A stretch of 64,000 nucleotides of DNA from Escherichia coli (GCF_044324875.1 NZ_CP172185.1), one strand, 5' to 3'; counted from the stretch's first letter, positions 1,041 to 23,553 are shown. Notes: generated by a model not told the origin, from the letters alone. Made by a program: numbers and translations.

Positions 1041-2036
1041 AGGTAACGGGACATCAAGTGTTGGTGAAACTTTAACCTTCCGGTCATAGATTAGCACTTG
1101 CCCTTCGGTTTTGTGACCAGAGAAAAGTTGCTTATCCCGGCTGCTTCCTTCATAGTCTGAAATTCCTTTCGCCTTCAGATCATGAAAGGTGAAGTCGGTT
1201 AAAATACCTGAAACTTTGCCTGCGCGATTTCTTGCTTCTACCCACATTTCGTTAAAGCCTTTGTACATATATCGGTTGCCGTATTGATTGCTGATCACAT
1301 AGGCGGATTTTGGTAACTGTTTTGCTTTTTCGACCGCTGCCTGTAATCGTGGACTCCATGCTTTTATCTGTTTTTTCCCTGTTTTCCCTTGCTGGATAAA
1401 GATCCCGTCGTTTCCAATCTGCTCCCATTTCAGCGATAACACATCGGAAACCCTCGCTGCACACAGATAGGCAATTTCCATTGCGATAAAAACAGGAAGG
1501 GGTGCCACGCTTAATACTGCCTGGTATTCTTTGTCGGTTACATATCGTTCGCGGTTTTTGGCCTTGAATTTACTTACTCCTGCACATGGGTTAGCCTTCA
1601 CGTACCCTCGCTCATACCCCCAACTGTAAACACGGGACATACTGCTTTTTTCATGGTTGGCTTGCGTTTTACTCTGTTCCCCTCTTTTGTCCATGTATCG
1701 ACGGATGTGTTCTGGTTTTATGGAATCCGCTGGTACCTTACCGAATACGGCAAGCAACTTTTTTTGATGTTGCAGATAATCTTTTTGTGTTCTTGGACTA
1801 AGGTCACTGTAACAGGCGCTGGCGAGGAATTTTTCCCACAAGCGACCGAATGTCATTGCACGATCGCGATTATTTACAGTTTCCTCATACTTTTTCCATA
1901 AAGCAGCTAAACCATCCTTGATGGCGGTTAGTGTTACAGATTCTCTGGATGTTGGTTTCCATACATAACTATATTTATTTGGGTATACATTTGGAGGTAA
2001 TTTTTCGTGTTCAGGATTTTTCCTTCGTCTTCCCAT
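1011..2036 (-). CDS. int: Tyrosine integrase, lambda Int family
   Basis: 341 aa ORF. N-terminus MGRRRKNPEHEKLPPNVY resembles lambda Int MGRRRSHERRDLPPNLY. Adjacent to the tRNA attachment site. Confidence 0.9.
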   Translation of the reverse strand: MGRRRKNPEHEKLPPNVYPNKYSYVWKPTSRESVTLTAIKDGLAALWKKYEETVNNRDRAMTFGRLWEKFLASACYSDLSPRTQKDYLQHQKKLLAVFGKVPADSIKPEHIRRYMDKRGEQSKTQANHEKSSMSRVYSWGYERGYVKANPCAGVSKFKAKNRERYVTDKEYQAVLSVAPLPVFIAMEIAYLCAARVSDVLSLKWEQIGNDGIFIQQGKTGKKQIKAWSPRLQAAVEKAKQLPKSAYVISNQYGNRYMYKGFNEMWVEARNRAGKVSGILTDFTFHDLKAKGISDYEGSSRDKQLFSGHKTEGQVLIYDRKVKVSPTLDVPLPENIPRKYSK

Positions 2037-2239
2037 CAGATCGCACCAAAATTCGGCTCTACCTCGCGTGGTGGTAAAGTTTTATTGCAGGTAAATAGAT
2101 CCCGGCTGACAATCGGTTTGCCACTACGATTGGTATAGAACGGAAGCCCGTTTTCCATTAACCATTTTCGCTGGTGGCTTGCATATTTGCAGCCCGTTAA
2201 TATTAGCAATTCATCTTCGGTTAAAAATAAGCTGCTCAT
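2036..2239 (-). CDS. xis: Excisionase-like protein (Xis)
   Basis: 67 aa ORF whose stop overlaps the int start. Small basic protein with a DNA-binding-like motif. Position is canonical for xis. Confidence 0.65.
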   Translation of the reverse strand: MSSLFLTEDELLILTGCKYASHQRKWLMENGLPFYTNRSGKPIVSRDLFTCNKTLPPREVEPNFGAI

Positions 2240-2255
2240 AGCTATATCTCATAAC

Positions 2256-2283
2256 CGCCGCTAACTATATGCGGTTAGCGGCG
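2256..2283. other. 10 bp perfect inverted repeat (CGCCGCTAAC...GTTAGCGGCG) between exonuclease and xis
   Basis: Stem-loop in the 58 bp gap between the two genes; no U-run, so not a simple terminator. Confidence 0.3.
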
Positions 2284-2297
2284 ATTAGGGTTGAACA

Positions 2298-4751
2298 TTA
2301 AAAATCAGCCTGATTCGGGATCAGTTTTTGTATAGTGGCTGTTACGTATTTTGCCTGGTGAAGAGCGTCATCCAGAGCATTATGGCGCACGCCTTCGAAT
2401 GGAATTACGCTTCTGGCATTGAAGTCTGTGATTTTCCCCATCTCAACGATTGTGCGTACATCACGATCGTTGCTGTAATGCCACGGACAGGGGATGTCCA
2501 GACGTTCGTATGAGGTGCGCAAAATTGCGTTATCGAACGTTGCGCCATTACCCCACACCTGAACGAATTTTTCATCAGAGTGTTCATTGACGAATTGCCG
2601 AAAACGCAAAAGGGCATCTTTCATTTTTACCTGGTCAGTTAAAATGGCAGCTCTGGCTTCGCTGGACTGCTTCAGCCACCATTCGATGGTGCCACCATCA
2701 GGAACAGCCCCTGTATTCATTGCGTCAGTCAGGCTGATAACGATATAAAATACCGGCCCGATTTCCCCTGTTTCCGGGTCGAAGAAAACCGCACCAATAA
2801 CTACTATGGGTGCATTGGTGTTGGCTCCCATTGTTTCAAGGTCGACTGACAGGTGATTCCATACTCTGCTGGTGGATGTGATTTCACGATGACCGTTCAT
2901 CTTAATTAAGGAATTTTCTGTTTCGCCAGTTTTATTATCGCTGGCGTGGCCCTGAGCGCCGCCAGTGTTCTCCTTGTGCGGATGCTCAGTGCCTTCCGTT
3001 TCCTCCGGATTTTTTTCCTGAGATTCAGCCTGATTTTCTCCATTGAATGTTTCCTGGTATGTTGCGTCACCCATTACTGAGCCACAATCAGGGCAGTTGC
3101 CGCCGCTGGTCTGACCGCAGGCGGTGCAGACTTTTTCCGGTTCCTGTTGCGCTACTGGCTCAGGTTGTTTCGTTTCTGGCTCGTTTTGTAACGCATTTTG
3201 GCTGTTTTGTTCCGCTTTCTGGTCGTTCTGTTCCGTTTCTTGCTGGTTCTGGTTCACTGAATCGCGAGTCTGGACTCCCTTAACCCATTTCAGATCATTC
3301 GGGTCGCTAATCCCTTCAACGAACTCACCACGCGAGGCCGCCAGTAATTTGTCTGCATCGACAGGATTTTTGGGCGGAATGTTTTTCCTAGCTTCATGGA
3401 GTTCTGCCCGCAGTTTCTGATATTTCGCATCAACAGAATTCACCTGCGGCTGAGCATCCAGCGGCTGCGTGTCCGGATGATGTTCAGTTGTATCCGGTTC
3501 CACTGTTTCAGTCGTTGGCTGTTCATCTGCCATTGCGCCAGACGGTTGCGGTTTTTCTTCATCATCCTGTTTTCCTTCTTCTGTTACACGCTGCGGCATT
3601 GGGGCAGAGGAACGACCGCAGGCAATATCCACGATTTCCGGATCAGGGTTGGCATGATCGGTTTCGGTCAGCACTTTATTCAAGTATTCGGTGACGCGCT
3701 GGGGCATAGCCTCTATACCAACCGGTGCTTCTTTCACGGAGGCAACCACGATGGCGCGGGAATAATCCATCCCGCCTGGCATGTTCAGAAAAGCCTTAAG
3801 GAAGACGGAGAAACAGGGATCATTTTCTGCGATAATTTCGTTAACACGTCTGGTATGTGAAGGATGCATGTTGTAAATATCCACATCCATCGAACGAGCC
3901 AGTTTTCCTGTAGCAACATCGAATGCCATTGACGCATTATCATGCACAAAACCTTCGCCGCGATCGGTAAGAATACCGCCGCCAGCGTTAGCGCCGGATG
4001 GTGTGCGACTGATGCGAGAAACACGATTTCCTTTCATCCACTCTTTTGTAAGCAGACCACGATCAGTGTAGTCAGCGTCCAGGTATGCTTCGATGAAGGA
4101 GGTCATCAGTCCCAGGTCTGAATTTACGGGGGCGGGAAAAACTTTGTCAGTGTCCCGCACCAGTTTGTACAAATCCCGAATCTCCAGCGGTTCGAGTTGC
4201 GCTGCTTTATTTGAGATGGCCAGCGCGGTAACGGCGGGAAGTTTTTCTTCCTGTGCGTTATGTAATGAGCGCAGTTCATCCCGCGAAACGTGCGTTACTG
4301 GTTTTTCGCCGCCGTGTTGCGCCAGCCAGCGAACAGGCAGAATCTGACCTGAAACCGGCAGAAGCATATTCTCCTCAATCTCAGTCATGTCTTCGCCATT
4401 AACATTGGTGTTGTCAGTGCTGGCTGGTTTGTCCTGCGCGGATGGCGGAGGCGCGATAAATATCATTGTGATGCCATCTTCGCCGCCTTTTTCATACCGG
4501 TTACAGAATTCGGTATCAAACACGCCTTCCGGTGGAAGGTCATCAACAACGGGCAAATGGACGCGAACAGGTTTTTTAAAGTCGTCTTCATCATAATCGT
4601 TATCATCCATTGCGGTAATGCAGCGGGAGATGGCAACAGATAATTTTTTTGCTGTAGTCCAGTAAAAACCACCTTTAATCCCAAGGCGTTTTCTGACTTT
4701 GTCATTTTTAGCTTCGCAATATAGCGCAAAAGTTTCTTTATCAGTGCTCAT
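2298..4751 (-). CDS. Large exonuclease with C-terminal DnaQ-like (DEDD) 3'-5' exonuclease domain; the type often annotated exodeoxyribonuclease VIII in E. coli prophages
   Basis: 817 aa ORF. C-terminal region has DLETMG...H...D motifs typical of DEDDh exonucleases. Central acidic/Gln-rich low-complexity region and an internal CxxC...CxxC zinc ribbon ([16 protein letters not shown]). Confidence 0.75.
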
Positions 4752-17510: not shown

Positions 17511-17726
17511 ATGAAATCCATGGATAAGATAACAACGGGTGTCGCCTATGGCACCTCGGCAGGCAGTGCCGGGTACTGGTTTTTACAGTGGCTTGATCAG
17601 GTTAGTCCGTCACAGTGGGCTGCTATTGGTGTGCTGGGGAGTCTGGCACTGGGCTTTCTGACTTATCTGACGAATCTGTATTTCAAAATTAAAGATGATC
17701 GGCGCAAAGTGGCGCGGGGAGAGTAG
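17511..17726 (+). CDS. S: Holin, phage 21 S21 pinholin type
   Basis: 71 aa; [71 protein letters not shown] is near-identical to recalled S21. GGAGG RBS. Confidence 0.9.
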
Positions 17727-17729
17727 GCG

Positions 17730-18041
17730 ATGAATAAAAAATACGAACTGGTTATTAAAGGGATAAGTAGTCACCCGGATAAGGTTGTGGTTACTGTGGC
17801 GCTGGAGAGCGACGGCTATCCGACGCTGTTTTCGCCGCATGTGGTGATTAAGCTTGATCGTGTTGACGGCGCAGCGCTGGAGCTTTATGAAGCAGAGGCG
17901 AAAAAACGAGCGAAGAAGATTTTTATGGATGCTGCTGCCGGGTTATGTGAAGCGTGGTCGTTGCCGGAAAAGCGCCTCCATTCAGAGGCGCGGTATACCA
18001 TAAAAATTAACGGTTCAGATAACTCAATTGCTGGTTTTTAA
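17730..18041 (+). CDS. Hypothetical protein (103 aa) inserted between holin and endolysin
   Basis: Starts 4 nt after the holin stop with GGAGAG upstream; no known motif. Confidence 0.5.
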   Translation: MNKKYELVIKGISSHPDKVVVTVALESDGYPTLFSPHVVIKLDRVDGAALELYEAEAKKRAKKIFMDAAAGLCEAWSLPEKRLHSEARYTIKINGSDNSIAGF

Positions 18042-18277
18042 CCTTTTGTCTCAGTTGGCTTTCCAATATCTTTCATTGGTAGCAGCATTTCGATATTGCT
18101 TTTGATATATGGATTATCTGCATGTTCTGTTAATTGATAAATGATAGCATTTTTTTCATTCTGGTCTAATACAGAAAACATAACTGCAATCATATATTTA
18201 AGAGCCTCAATTTCTCCTGTTGTTGAGTTGGGGGATGAACAGTCCGCTGTAACATTAATAAAAGTTTCTTTTTTCAT
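18038..18277 (-). CDS. Hypothetical AT-rich ORF (79 aa), opposite strand, inside the lysis cassette
   Basis: Convergent with 17730..18041; markedly AT-rich compared with flanks, suggesting a horizontally acquired insert. Confidence 0.4.
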   Translation of the reverse strand: MKKETFINVTADCSSPNSTTGEIEALKYMIAVMFSVLDQNEKNAIIYQLTEHADNPYIKSNIEMLLPMKDIGKPTETKG

Positions 18278-18401
18278 ATCAGATCCTTAGATGGGGTAGC
18301 TCAGCCAACCACCCGAGCCTTAACCGGAACGCCAGTGCCCACTACACTACTGGCGGGCTGAGGCTTTAACATATCCAGGGTTCAGAAAACGATAAATATC
18401 C

Positions 18402-18935
18402 ATGAGCACAAAAATCAGATACGGCCTGTCGGCTGCCGTTCTGGCGTTGATTGCTGCAGGTGCATCCGCTCCCGTCATTCTTGACCAGTTTCTGGACGAA
18501 AAAGAAGGTAATCACACTACGGCATACCGTGATGGCTCCGGTATATGGACCATCTGTCGGGGTGCCACGATGGTGGATGGAAAACCCGTTTTTCCCGGTA
18601 TGAAACTGTCGAAGGAAAAATGCGACCAGGTCAACGCCATCGAACGGGATAAGGCGCTGGCATGGGTGGAGCGCAATATTAAAGTTCCACTGACCGAAGC
18701 ACAGAAAGCGGGTATTGCGTCATTCTGTCCCTATAACATTGGCCCCGGTAAGTGTTTCCCGTCGACGTTTTATAAGCGGCTGAATGCCGGTGATCGTAAG
18801 GGCGCATGCGAGGCGATTCGCTGGTGGATAAAAGATGGTGGGCGCGATTGCCGCATACGTTCAAATAACTGCTATGGACAGGTTATTCGTCGTGACCAGG
18901 AAAGCGCATTAGCCTGTTGGGGAATAGATCAGTGA
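18402..18935 (+). CDS. R: SAR endolysin (lysozyme, R21-like)
   Basis: 177 aa. N-terminal hydrophobic signal-anchor-release segment [21 protein letters not shown] followed by a lysozyme domain ([20 protein letters not shown]). Confidence 0.9.
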
Positions 18936-19399
18936 GCAGAGTCGCCGCGATTATTTATGCTCTGGTTATCTGCACTATCGTCTGCCTGTCGTGGGCGGTC
19001 AATCATTACCGTGATAACGCCATAGCCTACAAAGAACAGCGTGATAAAAAAGTCAGTGAGCTGAAGCAGGCGATCGCCACCATCGCTGACATGCAGCAGC
19101 GTCAGCGTGATGTTGCTGCGCTCGATGCAAAGTACTCGAGAGAATTAGCCAATGCGAAAGCTGAAAATGAAACTCTGCGCGCTGATGTTGCCGCTGGTCG
19201 TAAGCGCCTGCGGGTCAATGTCAGTTGCTCCGAAGCCGTGCGTGAAGCCACCGGACCCACCAGCGTGGATAATGCAACCAGCCCCCGACTGGCAGACACC
19301 GCTGAACGGGATTATTTCACCCTCAGAGAACGGTTGATGACGATGCAGAAGCAACTGGAAGGGGCACAGGAGTATATCCGCACTCAGTGCATTAAGTAG
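18932..19399 (+). CDS. Rz: i-spanin Rz
   Basis: GTG start overlapping the endolysin stop. [40 protein letters not shown] resembles lambda Rz. Confidence 0.85.
19152..19337 (+). CDS. Rz1: o-spanin Rz1, embedded in Rz in another frame
   Basis: 61 aa lipoprotein [20 protein letters not shown] with Pro-rich [27 protein letters not shown], like lambda Rz1. Confidence 0.8.
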
Positions 19400-19939: not shown

Positions 19940-20422
19940 ATGTCAGGACCCCCGAAAACCCCGCCACGCCTGCATTTGATACGAGGCAACCCCTCAAAGC
20001 GCCCCGTTAAAGACCCAAAAAAAACCGCTAAAAAGGATGAAAAAGGTCTCCCTAAAATTCCGCAACATTTAGGGTCGCAGGGGAAGTACTGGTTCAGGCG
20101 AATGGCGGAAGAACTGAATGCGGAAGGGATCATTTCTCAGCTTGATGCGCGTGCACTCGAGTTACTGGTGGAAGCCTACACCGAATACCGGCATTACTGC
20201 GAAACACTCGATGTTGAGGGGTATACCTACCGCACGGAAACGCAGAACGGTGATGTGCTGATTAAGGCACACCCGGCTGCTGCGATGAAAGCGGATGCCT
20301 GGAAGCGGATCCGGGCGATGCTTGCAGAATTTGGTATGTCACCGGCAAGCCGGGCGAAAGTAAATACCGCCGGACCGGATGATGTTGATCCGCTGGCGGA
20401 GCTTTTAAAAGCGAGAGACTGA
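19940..20422 (+). CDS. terS: Terminase small subunit
   Basis: 160 aa, basic N-terminus; stop overlaps the terL start. Confidence 0.7.
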   Translation: MSGPPKTPPRLHLIRGNPSKRPVKDPKKTAKKDEKGLPKIPQHLGSQGKYWFRRMAEELNAEGIISQLDARALELLVEAYTEYRHYCETLDVEGYTYRTETQNGDVLIKAHPAAAMKADAWKRIRAMLAEFGMSPASRAKVNTAGPDDVDPLAELLKARD

Positions 20423-22179
20423 TGGCAAAAGTGGCTGACGGGATCCGCTACGCCGAACGTGTTGTTGCAGGAGAAATTGTTGCTGGCGAATTTGTCCGCC
20501 TAGCCTGCCAGCGTTTTCTTGATGATCTGAAGTACGGCGAAGAGCGGGGGATTTATTTCAGTGAACCCCGTGCGCAGCACATCCTGAATTTCTACAAATT
20601 TGTGCCCCATGTGAAAGGGGCGCTGGCAGGCCAGCCCATTGAGTTGATGGACTGGCATGTATTTATCCTCATTAATATTTTTGGTTTTGTCATTCCGCTG
20701 GTGAATGAAGAGACCGGGGAAGTTGTCATGCGCAGCGATGGCAGCGGACGCCCGGTGATGGTGCGCCGGTTCCGGACGGCGTACAACGAAGTCGCCCGTA
20801 AAAACGCAAAATCAACCCTGTCATCGGGTATCGGCCTGTATATGACGGGGGCAGATGGTGAAGGCGGTGCTGAGGTTTATTCAGCCGCAACCACGCGTGA
20901 TCAGGCCAGAATTGTGTTTGAAGACGCCAAAAATATGGTCAGAAAAGCCCGGTCGACACTCGGGCGGTTGTTTGATTTCAACAAGCTGGCGATTTACCAG
21001 GAGCAGAGCGCATCAAAATTTGAGCCGCTTTCCTCGGATGCAAACAATCTGGACGGTCTGAACATCCACTGCGCCATTATTGATGAGCTGCATGCACATA
21101 AAACCCGTGACGTGTGGGACGTTCTGGAAACGGCAACCGGTGCCCGTCTGCAGTCCCTTTTATTTGGTATCACCACGGCAGGGTTTAACAAGGAAGGGAT
21201 TTGTTACGAGCAGCGTGATTACGCCATCAAGGTATTGCGTGGCTATAACAGCGACGTGGAGGGCGCGGTAAAAGACGACTCCTACTTTGCGATTATTTAC
21301 ACCCTCGATGAGGGAGATGATCCGTTTGATGAAACGGTCTGGCAGAAAGCGAATCCCGGCCTGGGCATCTGTAAACGCTGGGATGATCTGCGTCGCCTGG
21401 CGAAAAAAGCGAAAGAACAGGTCTCTGCGCGGGTGAATTTTTTTACCAAACACATGAATGTGTGGGTCACTGCCGAATCAGCCTGGATGGACATGATTAA
21501 GTGGGAGAAGTGCGAATATATTGCTCCACGACATGAGCTGAAAACATATCCCATGTGGGTCGGCGTTGACCTTGCTCATAAGATTGATATCTGTGCAGCG
21601 GCAAAACTCTGGCGAACGGATAACGGGCATGTTCATGCCGATTTTAAATTCTGGCTTCCGGAAGGACGGCTGGAACGATGCTCGCGGCAGCAGGCAGAAC
21701 TTTACCGGAAGTGGGCGGAGATGGATAAGCTGATTCTGACGGATGGTGATGTTATCGATCATGGCCAGATAAAAAGTGACTTACTGGAATGGACTGGTGG
21801 TGAAAACCTCAGGGAACTGGGATTTGACCCGTGGAGCGCGATGCAGTTCAGCCTGGCACTGGCTGAAGAAGGGATACCGCTGGTGGAGGTTCCGCAGACG
21901 GTTCGCAATCTGTCAGAGGCCATGAAGGAAACGGAATCACTGGTCTATGCCGGGCGTTTCCATCACAGCAATCACCCGGTCATGAACTGGATGATGTCTA
22001 ACGTTACGGTGAAACCGGACAAAAACGACAATATCTTCCCGAATAAATGCACGCCGGAAGCCAAAATCGACGGCCCTGTTGCGCTTTTTACAGCCATGAG
22101 CCGCCTTCTGGTAAATGGCGGGGACGTGAATGACTTTCTGTCCACGCTTGATCCTGATGAGGACCTGTTAATTCTGTGA
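20422..22179 (+). CDS. terL: Terminase large subunit
   Basis: 585 aa with ATPase motifs and acidic nuclease residues, recognised as HK97-type TerL. Confidence 0.9.
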   Translation: MAKVADGIRYAERVVAGEIVAGEFVRLACQRFLDDLKYGEERGIYFSEPRAQHILNFYKFVPHVKGALAGQPIELMDWHVFILINIFGFVIPLVNEETGEVVMRSDGSGRPVMVRRFRTAYNEVARKNAKSTLSSGIGLYMTGADGEGGAEVYSAATTRDQARIVFEDAKNMVRKARSTLGRLFDFNKLAIYQEQSASKFEPLSSDANNLDGLNIHCAIIDELHAHKTRDVWDVLETATGARLQSLLFGITTAGFNKEGICYEQRDYAIKVLRGYNSDVEGAVKDDSYFAIIYTLDEGDDPFDETVWQKANPGLGICKRWDDLRRLAKKAKEQVSARVNFFTKHMNVWVTAESAWMDMIKWEKCEYIAPRHELKTYPMWVGVDLAHKIDICAAAKLWRTDNGHVHADFKFWLPEGRLERCSRQQAELYRKWAEMDKLILTDGDVIDHGQIKSDLLEWTGGENLRELGFDPWSAMQFSLALAEEGIPLVEVPQTVRNLSEAMKETESLVYAGRFHHSNHPVMNWMMSNVTVKPDKNDNIFPNKCTPEAKIDGPVALFTAMSRLLVNGGDVNDFLSTLDPDEDLLIL

Positions 22180-22337
22180 AACAGCTTATTACTGATATGA
22201 CCGGGCTGATCGGTTTCGGTCTGCTCACTGCTGGCGTTTATCTGTATGCAGGTCTGCCAGCGTCTCTGATCCTGTCCGGCTGTTTGTTACTGCTTTATGC
22301 ACTGGTGGTGTCCATGAGGAGAAAACATGCTTCTTGA
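22176..22337 (+). CDS. Possible small membrane protein (about 53 aa) between terL and portal
   Basis: GTG overlapping the terL stop. VKQLITDMTGLIGFGLLTAGVYLYAGLPASLILSGCLLLLYALVVSMRRKHAS has two hydrophobic segments. Below the track's 60 aa cutoff. Confidence 0.35.
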   Translation: MKQLITDMTGLIGFGLLTAGVYLYAGLPASLILSGCLLLLYALVVSMRRKHAS

Positions 22338-23553
22338 TGCTCTGTTTCGCAGTGAACCTCTGGAAAATCCCTCGGTTCCGGTAACCGGAGAGACAGCTGA
22401 GACGGATAATATTTTTGCCCGGGATGTGTATGTCAGTCCGGAAACATCCATGAAGCTGGCTGCTGTCTATGCCTGTATTTATGTTATTTCATCCAGTGTG
22501 GCTCAGATGCCCCTGCATGTGATGCGAAAAACGGATGACCAGGTTCATCCGGCACGCGATCACCCGTTGTTCTGGCTCGTTCATGATGAACCGAATGCCT
22601 GGCAGACCAGCTATAAGTGGCGGGAACTGAAGCAGCGTCATGTGCTGGGGTGGGGCAATGGTTATACGTGGGTAAAACGTAATCGTCGTGGCGAGGTTAC
22701 CAGTCTTGAATGCTGTATGCCATGGGAAACCACGTTACTTAACACCGGTGGGCGTCATACCTACGGGGTGTATAACGAAGAGGGCGCATTTGCGGTAAGT
22801 CCGGACGACATGATCCATATCAGGGCACTGGGAAACAATCAGAAAATGGGACTGAGTCCGATCATGCAGCATGCTGAAACCATTGGCATGGGGATGAGCG
22901 GCCAGCAGTATACCAGTGCCTTTTTTAATGGTAACGCGCGTCCTGCCGGTATTATTTCTGTGAAAAATGAACTGAACGAACAGAGCTGGAGCAGGCTTAA
23001 AAATATGTGGCAGCGGGCGGTGACAGGGCTTCGCAGTCAGGAAAATAAAACTATGCTCCTGCCCGCGCAACTGGATTACCGTGCTCTGACAGTTTCACCG
23101 GTGGATGCTCAGATCATTGATATGACCAAACTGAACAGGTCGATGATTGCCGGGATTTTTAATGTCCCGGCGCACATGATTAATGACCTGGAAAAAGCCA
23201 CGTTTTCGAATATTACACAGCAGGCGATTCAGTTTGTTCGCTACACGATGATGCCCTGGGTTGCGAACTGGGAGCAGGAGCTTAACCGCCGCCTGTTTAC
23301 CCGTACAGAACGGGCTGCCGGGTATTACGTTCGTTTCAACCTCACGGGGTTGCTCCGTGGGACCCCACAGGAGCGTGCGCAGTTCTATCACTTTGCCATT
23401 ACAGATGGCTGGATGAGCCGGAATGAAGCCAGGGCATTTGAGGACATGAACCCGGTTGACGGTCTGGATGAAATGCTGGTCAGCGTAAATGCAGCAAATC
23501 CGTTGAATAACTTTAAAGATACGAAAGGCAAAGAGGAAAAGGACGATGAATGA
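22327..23553 (+). CDS. Portal protein (HK97 family)
   Basis: 408 aa ORF after terL; recognised as HK97-type portal by sequence and position. Confidence 0.85.
   Translation: MLLDALFRSEPLENPSVPVTGETAETDNIFARDVYVSPETSMKLAAVYACIYVISSSVAQMPLHVMRKTDDQVHPARDHPLFWLVHDEPNAWQTSYKWRELKQRHVLGWGNGYTWVKRNRRGEVTSLECCMPWETTLLNTGGRHTYGVYNEEGAFAVSPDDMIHIRALGNNQKMGLSPIMQHAETIGMGMSGQQYTSAFFNGNARPAGIISVKNELNEQSWSRLKNMWQRAVTGLRSQENKTMLLPAQLDYRALTVSPVDAQIIDMTKLNRSMIAGIFNVPAHMINDLEKATFSNITQQAIQFVRYTMMPWVANWEQELNRRLFTRTERAAGYYVRFNLTGLLRGTPQERAQFYHFAITDGWMSRNEARAFEDMNPVDGLDEMLVSVNAANPLNNFKDTKGKEEKDDE

What the first reader, a model, noticed from the sequence alone, without database searches (positions are those of the whole stretch)
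22176..22337. Unannotated small two-TM ORF between terminase and portal
A 53-codon ORF with two hydrophobic helices is translationally coupled to terL (GTGA overlap) and overlaps the portal start. It is below the track's 60 aa cutoff.
Basis: seen in the sequence. Interest (0 to 1): 0.3.

Follow-up and report, generated by a model that had tools for sequence, protein, structure and literature searches.

The report
Conserved tiny membrane gene before portal
The 53-codon reading frame between the phage DNA-packaging enzyme gene and the portal gene is a real, widely conserved gene for a two-helix membrane protein. It is already in public catalogues as a protein of unknown function, and nobody has shown what it does.

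Summary
A GTG-initiated 53-codon ORF (22176..22337, +) overlaps the terL stop by 4 nt (GTGA) and the portal ATG (22327) by 11 nt, and it encodes two hydrophobic helices.

It is a real gene:
- It is kept at 53 codons with the same two overlaps in 159 related loci.
- dN/dS is 0.05-0.36 in its own frame and 0.47-2.5 in the other two frames.
- Its profile finds 148 clusters of 45-80-aa proteins. Nine of the ten sampled for context lie directly upstream of a PF04860 portal gene.

It is not unannotated in public data. RefSeq calls it a hypothetical protein (WP_045147211.1), and it belongs to PHROG 7105 (unknown function). Relatives are labelled "membrane protein" in phages phiE125 and SfII.

Its divergence follows the portal (rho 0.88), not terL. 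It occurs with both contractile and lambda-like tails. It has no promoter or terminator of its own. HK97 itself and its close portal relatives lack it.

The function is untested. My best inference (about 0.3) is a low-abundance inner-membrane hairpin that helps portal or prohead assembly at the membrane, as T4 gp40 does. Lysis, exclusion and virion roles are weaker rivals. The finding is sound but ordinary in kind, and of modest interest.

The parts
22176..22337 (+). Small gene 'X': 53 codons plus stop, GTG start; predicted two-helix membrane hairpin; member of PHROG 7105
   Evidence: ORF; PHROG 7105, E 2.7e-19, profile positions 1-52 of 52; purifying selection in this frame; AF2: two helices
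22176..22179 (+). GTGA: X start codon overlapping the terL stop codon (a termination-reinitiation arrangement)
   Evidence: The same 4-nt overlap (ATGA or GTGA) is present in all 81 distinct junction sequences
22159..22163 (+). Weak, distant Shine-Dalgarno-like GAGGA, 12 nt before the X start; not conserved in relatives
   Evidence: Only 14 of 81 distinct junctions have an SD-like core upstream of X
22197..22250 (+). Codons 8-25: first hydrophobic helix (family motif G13, G20, Y22-L23), preceded by conserved D7
   Evidence: Family column statistics (G13 98%, G20 98%, D7 83% D / 88% acidic, Y22 68%, L23 80%); AF2 helix 2-25
22251..22259 (+). Codons 26-28 (G-L-P): tight turn between the helices; G26 is 94% conserved
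22260..22313 (+). Codons 29-46: second hydrophobic helix (L31 86%, invariant G35)
22316..22321 (+). GAGGAG: Shine-Dalgarno sequence of the portal gene, 5 nt before its ATG. The same bases cover the end of X codon 47 (Met), all of codon 48 (Arg) and most of codon 49 (Arg), the start of its basic C-terminal tail
   Evidence: An SD-like core (AGGAG or AGGGGG) sits at this place in 81 of 81 distinct junctions
22327..22337 (+). 11-nt overlap of the X 3' end with the portal 5' end
   Evidence: the same 11-nt overlap in 159 loci
20422..22179 (+). terL (PF03354 + PF20441), upstream neighbour
22327..23553 (+). Portal (PF04860), downstream neighbour and the gene X is co-inherited with

Best explanation
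Shown: 22176..22337 is a real late gene of the head and packaging module of an SfV-like/lambdoid E. coli prophage. It encodes a 53-aa helical hairpin of two hydrophobic helices. It belongs to a widespread family of 45-80-aa phage proteins (PHROG 7105; related PHROGs 502 and 4810). Nine of the ten family members sampled for context lie immediately upstream of a PF04860 portal gene.

Inferred from the sequence arrangement: X has no reliable Shine-Dalgarno sequence and starts on the terL stop codon. It is therefore probably made by ribosomes that reinitiate after finishing terL, and so in small amounts. The portal gene has its own strong Shine-Dalgarno sequence, written inside the codons for X's basic tail. 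By the positive-inside rule, both short ends (MKxLIxD and the R/K tail) face the cytoplasm.

Inferred function (about 0.3 on its own): X inserts in the inner membrane and acts in head morphogenesis there. Most plausibly it helps to nucleate or hold the portal ring, or the early prohead, at the membrane. This is the role that phage T4 gp40 plays for the gp20 portal. X is an accessory of one large branch of HK97-type head modules, not a universal requirement.
For: Real gene:
- dN/dS is 0.05-0.36 in frame against 0.47-2.5 out of frame.
- Codon-position entropy runs 3 > 1 > 2.
- 160/160 loci of two portal clades keep it, 159 of them with identical geometry.
- The profile finds 148 clusters at E <= 1e-3 among 1.84 billion representatives, nearly all 45-80 aa.
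- There are four near-invariant glycines and an acidic residue at position 7.

Membrane hairpin: GRAVY +1.04; AF2 gives two helices, pLDDT 84.7.

Linked to the portal and head module:
- 9 of 10 distant members sampled lie directly before a PF04860 portal. One of them follows a different terL type, Terminase_6C.
- Over 110 unique terL/X/portal triples, X identity follows portal identity (Spearman 0.88) rather than terL identity (0.55). In pairs where terL and portal disagree, X against terL is about 0 and X against portal is 0.74.
- X is present with a Mu-like contractile tail in SfV and with a lambda-like tail here.

Not a moron: no + strand promoter-like site between 19300 and 24128 and no terminator after X; GC is 0.494 against 0.506-0.516 in the neighbours.

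Coupling.

Breadth:
- A homologous small ORF sits before the portal in Bacillus prophages (76 of 79 loci; hhalign 91%).
- Small ORFs that match the X profile also sit there in phiE125 (gp3), SfII (SfII_03) and phages of Vibrio, Pseudomonas and Ralstonia.

Precedent for a membrane-bound portal initiator: T4 gp20 depends on gp40 and contacts YidC (PMC9958956, read).
Against: - No experiment bears on the function, and the papers searched say nothing about it.
- HK97 and 80/80 loci with HK97-type portals assemble heads without it. So do Serratia Bonzee, Clostridium CWou-2020b and Streptomyces TG1. It is therefore not needed for this fold of portal in general.
- Only about 14 residues are predicted to face the cytoplasm, little surface for binding a soluble portal. 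The best-conserved residues lie inside the membrane helices, which would equally fit self-association or binding to a host membrane protein.
- No sequence similarity to T4 gp40 was tested or is claimed.
- Co-inheritance with the portal could simply reflect where recombination breakpoints fall.
- One weak family member (P0083) lies in a satellite-like element without an adjacent portal.
Confidence: 0.4

Rival explanations
1. X is a lysis-timing protein: a second holin, an antiholin or another membrane-permeabilising factor made late, which acts on the inner membrane independently of head assembly.
For: - Its predicted architecture is that of class II holins: two membrane helices, both ends predicted to face the cytoplasm, a basic C-terminal tail.
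- 6 of 133 family members give sub-threshold Pfam matches to Phage_holin_3_6 (best E 0.0014).
- The best-conserved positions are glycines inside the helices, as expected for self-associating membrane peptides.
- It is in the late operon, just downstream of the lysis cassette in this prophage.
Against: - The prophage already has a full cassette: S21-type holin (PF04971), lysozyme and Rz.
- The X profile shows no similarity to that holin (hhalign probability 0.3%).
- In 9 of the 10 distant members sampled, and in every portal-clade locus checked, X sits next to the portal gene and follows its divergence, whereas holins sit next to endolysins.
- No member reaches a Pfam holin threshold.
- X is found with very different hosts and lysis systems, including Bacillus.
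Confidence: 0.12
2. X is a small hydrophobic component of the virion, or is carried in with the DNA. It would be stored at or near the portal and inserted into the recipient's inner membrane during genome delivery.
For: It is genetically tied to the portal and head module and is hydrophobic enough to enter a membrane. A 5.6-kDa hydrophobic peptide is easily missed in virion proteomics (general knowledge).
Against: A two-helix hydrophobic peptide made in the cytoplasm is expected to insert into the producer cell's membrane, not to be packaged (general knowledge). Translation by reinitiation after terL predicts low amounts. No structure or proteome reports such a component (no PDB relative; literature searches negative).
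Confidence: 0.08
3. X is a moron-type protective membrane protein (superinfection exclusion or another host-directed function) that only happens to lie in the head operon.
For: The related PHROG 502 is filed under 'moron, auxiliary metabolic gene and host takeover: membrane protein'. Membrane-protein morons inside structural operons exist, for example HK97 gp15 (from memory, not tested here).
Against: - No promoter-like site and no terminator of its own.
- No compositional difference from its neighbours.
- It overlaps both neighbouring genes.
- It is a stable, syntenic part of the module across Proteobacteria and Bacillus, whereas morons are sporadic.
- No PADLOC match.
Confidence: 0.06
4. The peptide has no function of its own. 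The ORF exists only to carry ribosomes from terL to the portal start, or to hold the portal Shine-Dalgarno sequence.
For: It overlaps on both sides, and the portal SD is embedded in its last codons in 81 of 81 distinct junctions. HK97-type modules join terL and portal directly.
Against: A spacer would not keep its amino-acid sequence. dN/dS is 0.05-0.36 only in this frame. There is a conserved motif (D7, G13, G20, Y22, G26, L31, G35) across 133 representatives that are only 26-60% identical to the query. The profile relationship extends to Bacillus proteins.
Confidence: 0.03

Closest known systems
PHROG 7105 (phage protein family, function unknown), with related PHROGs 502 ('membrane protein') and 4810
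   Same: X matches over its full length (E 2.7e-19, profile positions 1-52 of 52). All 133 family representatives match PHROG 7105, 47 also match 502 and 36 match 4810. Size is the same. In every phage record I checked, the position is between terL and portal.
   Different: None; this is the family X belongs to. The family has no assigned function. The 'moron' category of PHROG 502 is not supported by the gene's context here.
RefSeq WP_045147211.1 (hypothetical protein, E. coli); phiE125 gp3 and SfII_03 (annotated 'membrane protein')
   Same: WP_045147211.1 is annotated at the same coordinates in a junction that is 99.9% identical over 701 nt. phiE125 gp3 (61 aa) and SfII_03 (60 aa) are two-helix ORFs between terL and portal that match the X family profile (33.7 and 25.2 bits).
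   Different: phiE125 gp3 and SfII_03 are distant: their portals are 29-35% identical to this one. SfII_03 does not overlap its neighbours in the same way.
Pfam DUF1056 (PF06341), e.g. Streptococcus phage Sfi21 orf59
   Same: It has the same position (between terL orf623 and portal orf384), a similar size (59 aa) and the same two-helix hydrophobic layout. Its function is also unknown.
   Different: No detectable sequence relationship. X gives no Pfam hit at E <= 10. hhalign of the X family against orf59 gives probability 1.1%. The Bacillus relatives reach DUF1056 only below threshold (E 0.04-0.17).
Phage T4 gp40, the membrane-associated factor needed to assemble the gp20 portal initiator on the inner membrane
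   Same: This is a proposed functional analogy only: a small phage-encoded protein that would link portal assembly to the inner membrane (PMC9958956).
   Different: No homology is claimed or was tested, and the phage lineage and portal family differ. X's role is untested.
Class II holins (phage 21 S, PF04971)
   Same: Two membrane helices, both ends predicted to face the cytoplasm, a charged C-terminal tail, and late expression.
   Different: No sequence relationship. X is not next to an endolysin, and the prophage carries its own S21-type holin at 17511..17726.
Lambda gpW (small gene between terminase A and portal B)
   Same: It is also a small gene placed between the large terminase and portal genes (from memory of the lambda map).
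   Different: gpW is a soluble head-tail joining protein (from memory), whereas X is strongly hydrophobic. No similarity was found in any library.

Membership tests
PHROG 7105 | Significant full-length match to the family profile | tested here: met
   E 2.7e-19, 69.7 bits, residues 1-52 on profile positions 1-52 of 52; 133 of 133 relatives also match
PHROG 7105 | Small size (about 50 aa) and two hydrophobic helices | tested here: met
   53 aa; AF2 helices 2-25 and 27-52; GRAVY +1.04
   Window. Relatives: (9 of 10 sampled distant members, 160 of 160 clade loci)
Pfam DUF1056 (PF06341) | Match to the Pfam model above the gathering score (22.2 bits) | tested here: not met
   No Pfam family at E <= 10; none among 133 relatives at E <= 0.1; hhalign against Sfi21 orf59 gives 1.1%
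Pfam DUF1056 (PF06341) | Small two-helix protein encoded between terL and portal of an HK97-type head module | tested here: met
   Sfi21 orf59 context and sequence compared with the window
Class II holin (phage 21 S type) | Sequence or profile similarity to a holin family | tested here: not met
   hhalign against the window's own S21 holin gives probability 0.3%; only sub-threshold Phage_holin_3_6 hits in 6 of 133 relatives
Class II holin (phage 21 S type) | Gene adjacent to the endolysin in the lysis cassette | tested here: not met
   Lysis genes are at 17511..19399. X lies about 2.8 kb downstream, separated from them by the HNH, terS and terL genes, and follows the portal in relatives
Class II holin (phage 21 S type) | Triggers membrane permeabilisation or complements a holin defect | not testable with these tools
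   Needs a lambda Sam7 complementation or induction experiment
Moron / superinfection-exclusion membrane protein | Own promoter and terminator, independent of the late operon | tested here: not met
   No + strand promoter-like site between 19300 and 24128 and no terminator after X; overlaps both neighbours
Moron / superinfection-exclusion membrane protein | Composition different from the flanking genes; sporadic distribution | tested here: not met
   GC 0.494 against 0.506-0.516; present in 160 of 160 loci of two portal clades
Moron / superinfection-exclusion membrane protein | Expressed from the repressed prophage and protects against other phages | not testable with these tools
   Needs transcript or protein data and plating assays. 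No PADLOC match
T4 gp40-like portal assembly factor (functional class) | Membrane association | tested here: inconclusive
   Predicted only, from hydrophobicity and the AF2 hairpin
T4 gp40-like portal assembly factor (functional class) | Required for portal ring formation or incorporation; physical contact with the portal | not testable with these tools
   Only genetic linkage to the portal is shown

The most novel reading that the evidence does not exclude
X and its relatives form one ancient family of membrane-anchored portal or prohead assembly factors. The family would take in the Bacillus proteins found here and perhaps DUF1056 of Sfi21-like phages. If so, head assembly in a large share of HK97-type phages of both Gram-negative and Gram-positive bacteria would start at the cytoplasmic membrane, as it does in T4, and not free in the cytoplasm.
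Probability: 0.2. Interest if true: 0.6.

Novelty: already known. Interest (0 to 1): 0.3.

Why it matters
The gene lies in about 17% of complete E. coli genomes (928 of 5426). Its family is a fixed part of the head module in many phages of Proteobacteria and Bacillus, yet it has no Pfam family, no solved structure and no paper on its function.

It is easy to lose. In the SfV reference genome, a portal start called too far upstream hides it.

If it does tie portal or prohead assembly to the membrane, the standard HK97-type assembly pathway would gain a step, and the protein would be a cheap target for genetics. If it does not, it is still a clean example of a small membrane protein whose basic tail and the next gene's ribosome-binding site are written in the same bases.

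Tried and rejected
- Pfam, NCBIfam and PADLOC scans of X gave nothing usable. Rfam found no RNA family on the junction. The PDB sequence search gave only chance-level membrane-helix hits.
- My recollection that this might be DUF1056 was tested and not met for X. It is true for Sfi21 orf59.
- The search for related loci with the 133-sequence family alignment failed because it had no sufficiently conserved stretch. I used portal proteins as seeds instead.
- tblastn of two distant family members against the phage collection found nothing, probably because of the low-complexity filter.
- Eight full-text searches returned holin descriptions and unrelated insertions between terminase and portal in actinophages. 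The Neisseria 'holin' NGO0488 looked promising but lies beside rusA, not between terL and portal.
- I looked for an N-terminal portal motif specific to X-bearing phages. A short hydrophobic start (MLLDALFR-like) also occurs in portals without X, so it does not discriminate.
- I did not run an AlphaFold fusion of X with the portal. The tool returns no inter-residue error or coordinates, so an interface could not be judged.

Full report
**1. The observation**

The window has an ORF at 22176..22337 on the + strand. It starts with GTG and encodes 53 aa: MKQLITDMTGLIGFGLLTAGVYLYAGLPASLILSGCLLLLYALVVSMRRKHAS.

The upstream ORF, 20422..22179, is a large terminase (PF03354 + PF20441). The downstream ORF, 22327..23553, is a portal (PF04860). 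The GTG at 22176-22178 overlaps the terL TGA at 22177-22179, giving GTGA. The X stop at 22335-22337 lies 11 nt inside the portal gene.

The protein is strongly hydrophobic. GRAVY is +1.04, and only 4 of 323 ORFs of 40-80 aa in the window's six frames reach that value. AlphaFold2 with a 133-sequence alignment gives helix 2-25, a break at G26 and helix 27-52, with mean pLDDT 84.7.

**2. It is a gene, not a chance frame**

- Using the portal protein as seed, I fetched 80 viral contigs. Two groups appeared, with 97-100% and 87-88% portal identity. All keep a 53-codon frame with the same overlaps, with GTG in one group and ATG in the other.
- A second seed portal, taken from a metagenomic relative, gave 80 more loci whose portals are 74-75% identical to that seed. 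All of them have X.
- In 159 loci where both neighbours could be read, the overlaps are 4 nt with terL and 11 nt with the portal.
- Nei-Gojobori dN/dS over codons 3-48, where no other gene's coding sequence overlaps, is 0.05 and 0.19 within groups and 0.36 between them. The other two frames give 0.47-2.5.
- Across 78 distinct 162-nt sequences, entropy by codon position is 0.82 / 0.44 / 1.23.
- No Rfam family matches the junction.

**3. It is already annotated and catalogued**

The junction occurs in 928 of 5426 complete E. coli genomes. In strain TUM1886, which is 99.9% identical here over 701 nt, RefSeq annotates these coordinates as hypothetical protein WP_045147211.1. Many GenBank phage records carry a 'hypothetical protein' there too.

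X matches PHROG 7105 (unknown function) over its full length at E 2.7e-19. It matches PHROG 502 ('membrane protein') and PHROG 4810 more weakly. It has no hit in Pfam or PADLOC, only chance-level matches in NCBIfam, and only chance-level PDB matches.

**4. The family**

A profile of six diverse members, searched against 1.84 billion representatives, found 148 clusters at E <= 1e-3. Nearly all are 45-80 aa.

The alignment shows this layout:
- a basic residue at position 2;
- an acidic residue at 7 (88%);
- G13 (98%), G20 (98%), Y22-L23, an aromatic residue at 25, G26 (94%), L31 (86%) and invariant G35;
- an R/K-rich tail.

All 133 retained representatives hit PHROG 7105.

I looked up the genomic context of ten distant members. 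Nine lie directly upstream of a PF04860 portal, usually after terL. One of these follows a Terminase_6C-type terL. The tenth, a weak hit, is in a satellite-like element.

**5. Distribution among HK97-type head modules**

HK97 itself joins terL and portal directly, and 0 of 80 loci with HK97-gp3-type portals have X. The window's portal is 28% identical to gp3.

I sampled cultured phages spread down the portal similarity ranking (contexts):
- A small two-helix ORF that matches the X profile lies between terL and portal in Ralstonia YO192_1, Vibrio K334 and VaK, Burkholderia phiE125 (gp3, 'membrane protein'), Shigella SfII (SfII_03, 'membrane protein'), Bacillus yong1 and Pseudomonas D14C.
- There is no such ORF in Serratia Bonzee, Clostridium CWou-2020b or Streptomyces TG1.
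- A Streptococcus suis phage has a hydrophilic 114-aa ORF there instead.

In the Bacillus group, 76 of 79 loci have such an ORF, and its profile aligns with the X family at 91% hhalign probability. Sfi21 orf59 (DUF1056) has the same place, size and layout, but no detectable similarity.

**6. Which module does X belong to?**

Over 110 unique terL / X / portal triples, X identity tracks portal identity (Spearman 0.88) much better than terL identity (0.55). Among 1576 pairs in which terL and portal identities disagree by more than 0.12, the correlation of X with terL is about 0 and with the portal is 0.74. These pairs are not phylogenetically independent, but the direction is clear: terL has been exchanged while X stayed with the portal.

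X also occurs with a Mu-like contractile tail in SfV and with a lambda-like tail here. It is therefore not tied to the tail or to the injection apparatus.

**7. Expression logic (inferred)**

All 81 distinct junctions have an ATGA or GTGA overlap at the terL stop, while only 14 have an SD-like core upstream of X. All 81 have AGGAG or AGGGGG 4-8 nt before the portal start, inside X codons 47-50. In the window, GAGGAG at 22316-22321 spans the last base of codon 47 (Met), codon 48 (Arg) and the first two bases of codon 49 (Arg).

X is therefore probably made by reinitiation after terL, at a low level, while the portal is translated from its own site. There is no promoter-like site on the + strand between 19300 and 24128 and no terminator after X. 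GC content equals that of the neighbours. X is not a moron.

**8. Function**

Nothing is known experimentally, and eight literature searches found no study.

The data favour a role in the head module at the inner membrane. The only precedent I can cite is T4, where the gp20 portal initiator is assembled on the membrane with the help of gp40 and contacts YidC (PMC9958956). I put about 0.3 on that specific reading.

The counter-arguments are these:
- Whole clades of the same portal family do without X.
- Only about 14 residues would face the cytoplasm.
- Conservation is concentrated within the membrane helices, which would also fit self-association or binding to a host membrane protein.

The rivals are less likely:
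- A lysis role is weakened by the complete S21 holin / lysozyme / Rz cassette at 17511..19399, by the lack of similarity to that holin and by the constant position next to the portal.
- An exclusion or moron role is weakened by the missing promoter and terminator and by the stable synteny.
- A virion role is possible but unsupported.
- A pure spacer is excluded by selection on the amino-acid sequence.

**9. Verdict**

The finding is a true, well-conserved small gene whose existence is already recorded in public databases. What remains open is its function. The most useful results of this check are three: the gene travels with the portal, it spans Gram-negative and Bacillus phages, and length cut-offs or mis-called portal starts (SfV) make it easy to miss.

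Noticed in passing
L083 (phage SfV, NC_003444) 2289..2450: The SfV reference genome has the 53-aa X homologue (ATGA overlap with terL), but it is not annotated. The portal CDS was started at GTG 2392, whereas homologous portals start at the GTG at 2440 (VLLDALFRS).
   Followed up: yes
window 17511..18935: The S21-type holin (17511..17726, PF04971) and the lysozyme (18402..18935) are separated by two extra ORFs: DUF1327 (17730..18041, +) and a 79-aa ORF with no Pfam match on the opposite strand (18038..18277). E. coli TUM1886, 99.9% identical at the terL-portal junction, has a DNA methyltransferase and a holin there instead, so the lysis region is mosaic.
   Followed up: partly
L260 5001..5237 (metagenome contig; protein P0083): A weak X-family hit (E 5e-5, 78 aa) lies in a satellite-like gene row: AlpA, Zn_Ribbon_Prim primase, AAA_25, the X-like gene, a 99-aa ORF and a 487-aa Phage_capsid protein. 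No portal is adjacent. It is either a false positive or a divergent use of the hairpin.
   Followed up: partly
L092 185..364 and L093 601..780 (protein P0120): This X homologue sits between a Terminase_6C-type large terminase and a PF04860 portal. The hairpin therefore stays with the portal when the terminase type changes.
   Followed up: partly
L271 (Pseudomonas phage vB_PaeS-D14C, BK061477) 1197..2616: Product names in this record are shifted by one gene. The 54-aa membrane ORF is called 'Phage portal protein' and the portal is called 'head-tail preconnector protease C'.
   Followed up: no
L275-L354 (Bacillus Spizizenvirus-like prophages), ORF ending at the portal start: 76 of 79 loci carry a 56-76-aa two-helix ORF (consensus MKKxxxxLLxLNDxLFxxGAAFILxAAYRxNTNIGLxLTGVFFMFYAxLLSKKR) before the portal. 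hhalign to the X family gives 91%. Matches to Pfam DUF1056 are sub-threshold (E 0.04-0.17).
   Followed up: partly
L406 (phage Sfi21) 2424..2603: orf59, a DUF1056 protein, is a 59-aa two-helix hydrophobic protein between terL and portal. It is a positional and architectural counterpart of X without detectable sequence similarity, and no paper in the library mentions DUF1056.
   Followed up: partly
window 22327..22350 and the portal starts of L082-L094, L264-L274: Most PF04860 portals, with or without X, begin with a short hydrophobic motif (MLLDALFR, MFFSGLFQR, MGLLDLLGR). HK97 gp3 does not (MEEPKYTI).
   Followed up: no
window 22196..22384, frame +1 relative to the portal: A second frame across the junction is open for 63 codons (YDRADRF...), but it has no start codon in a good context. 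Its substitution pattern is that of a non-coding frame (dN/dS 0.47-0.93).
   Followed up: yes
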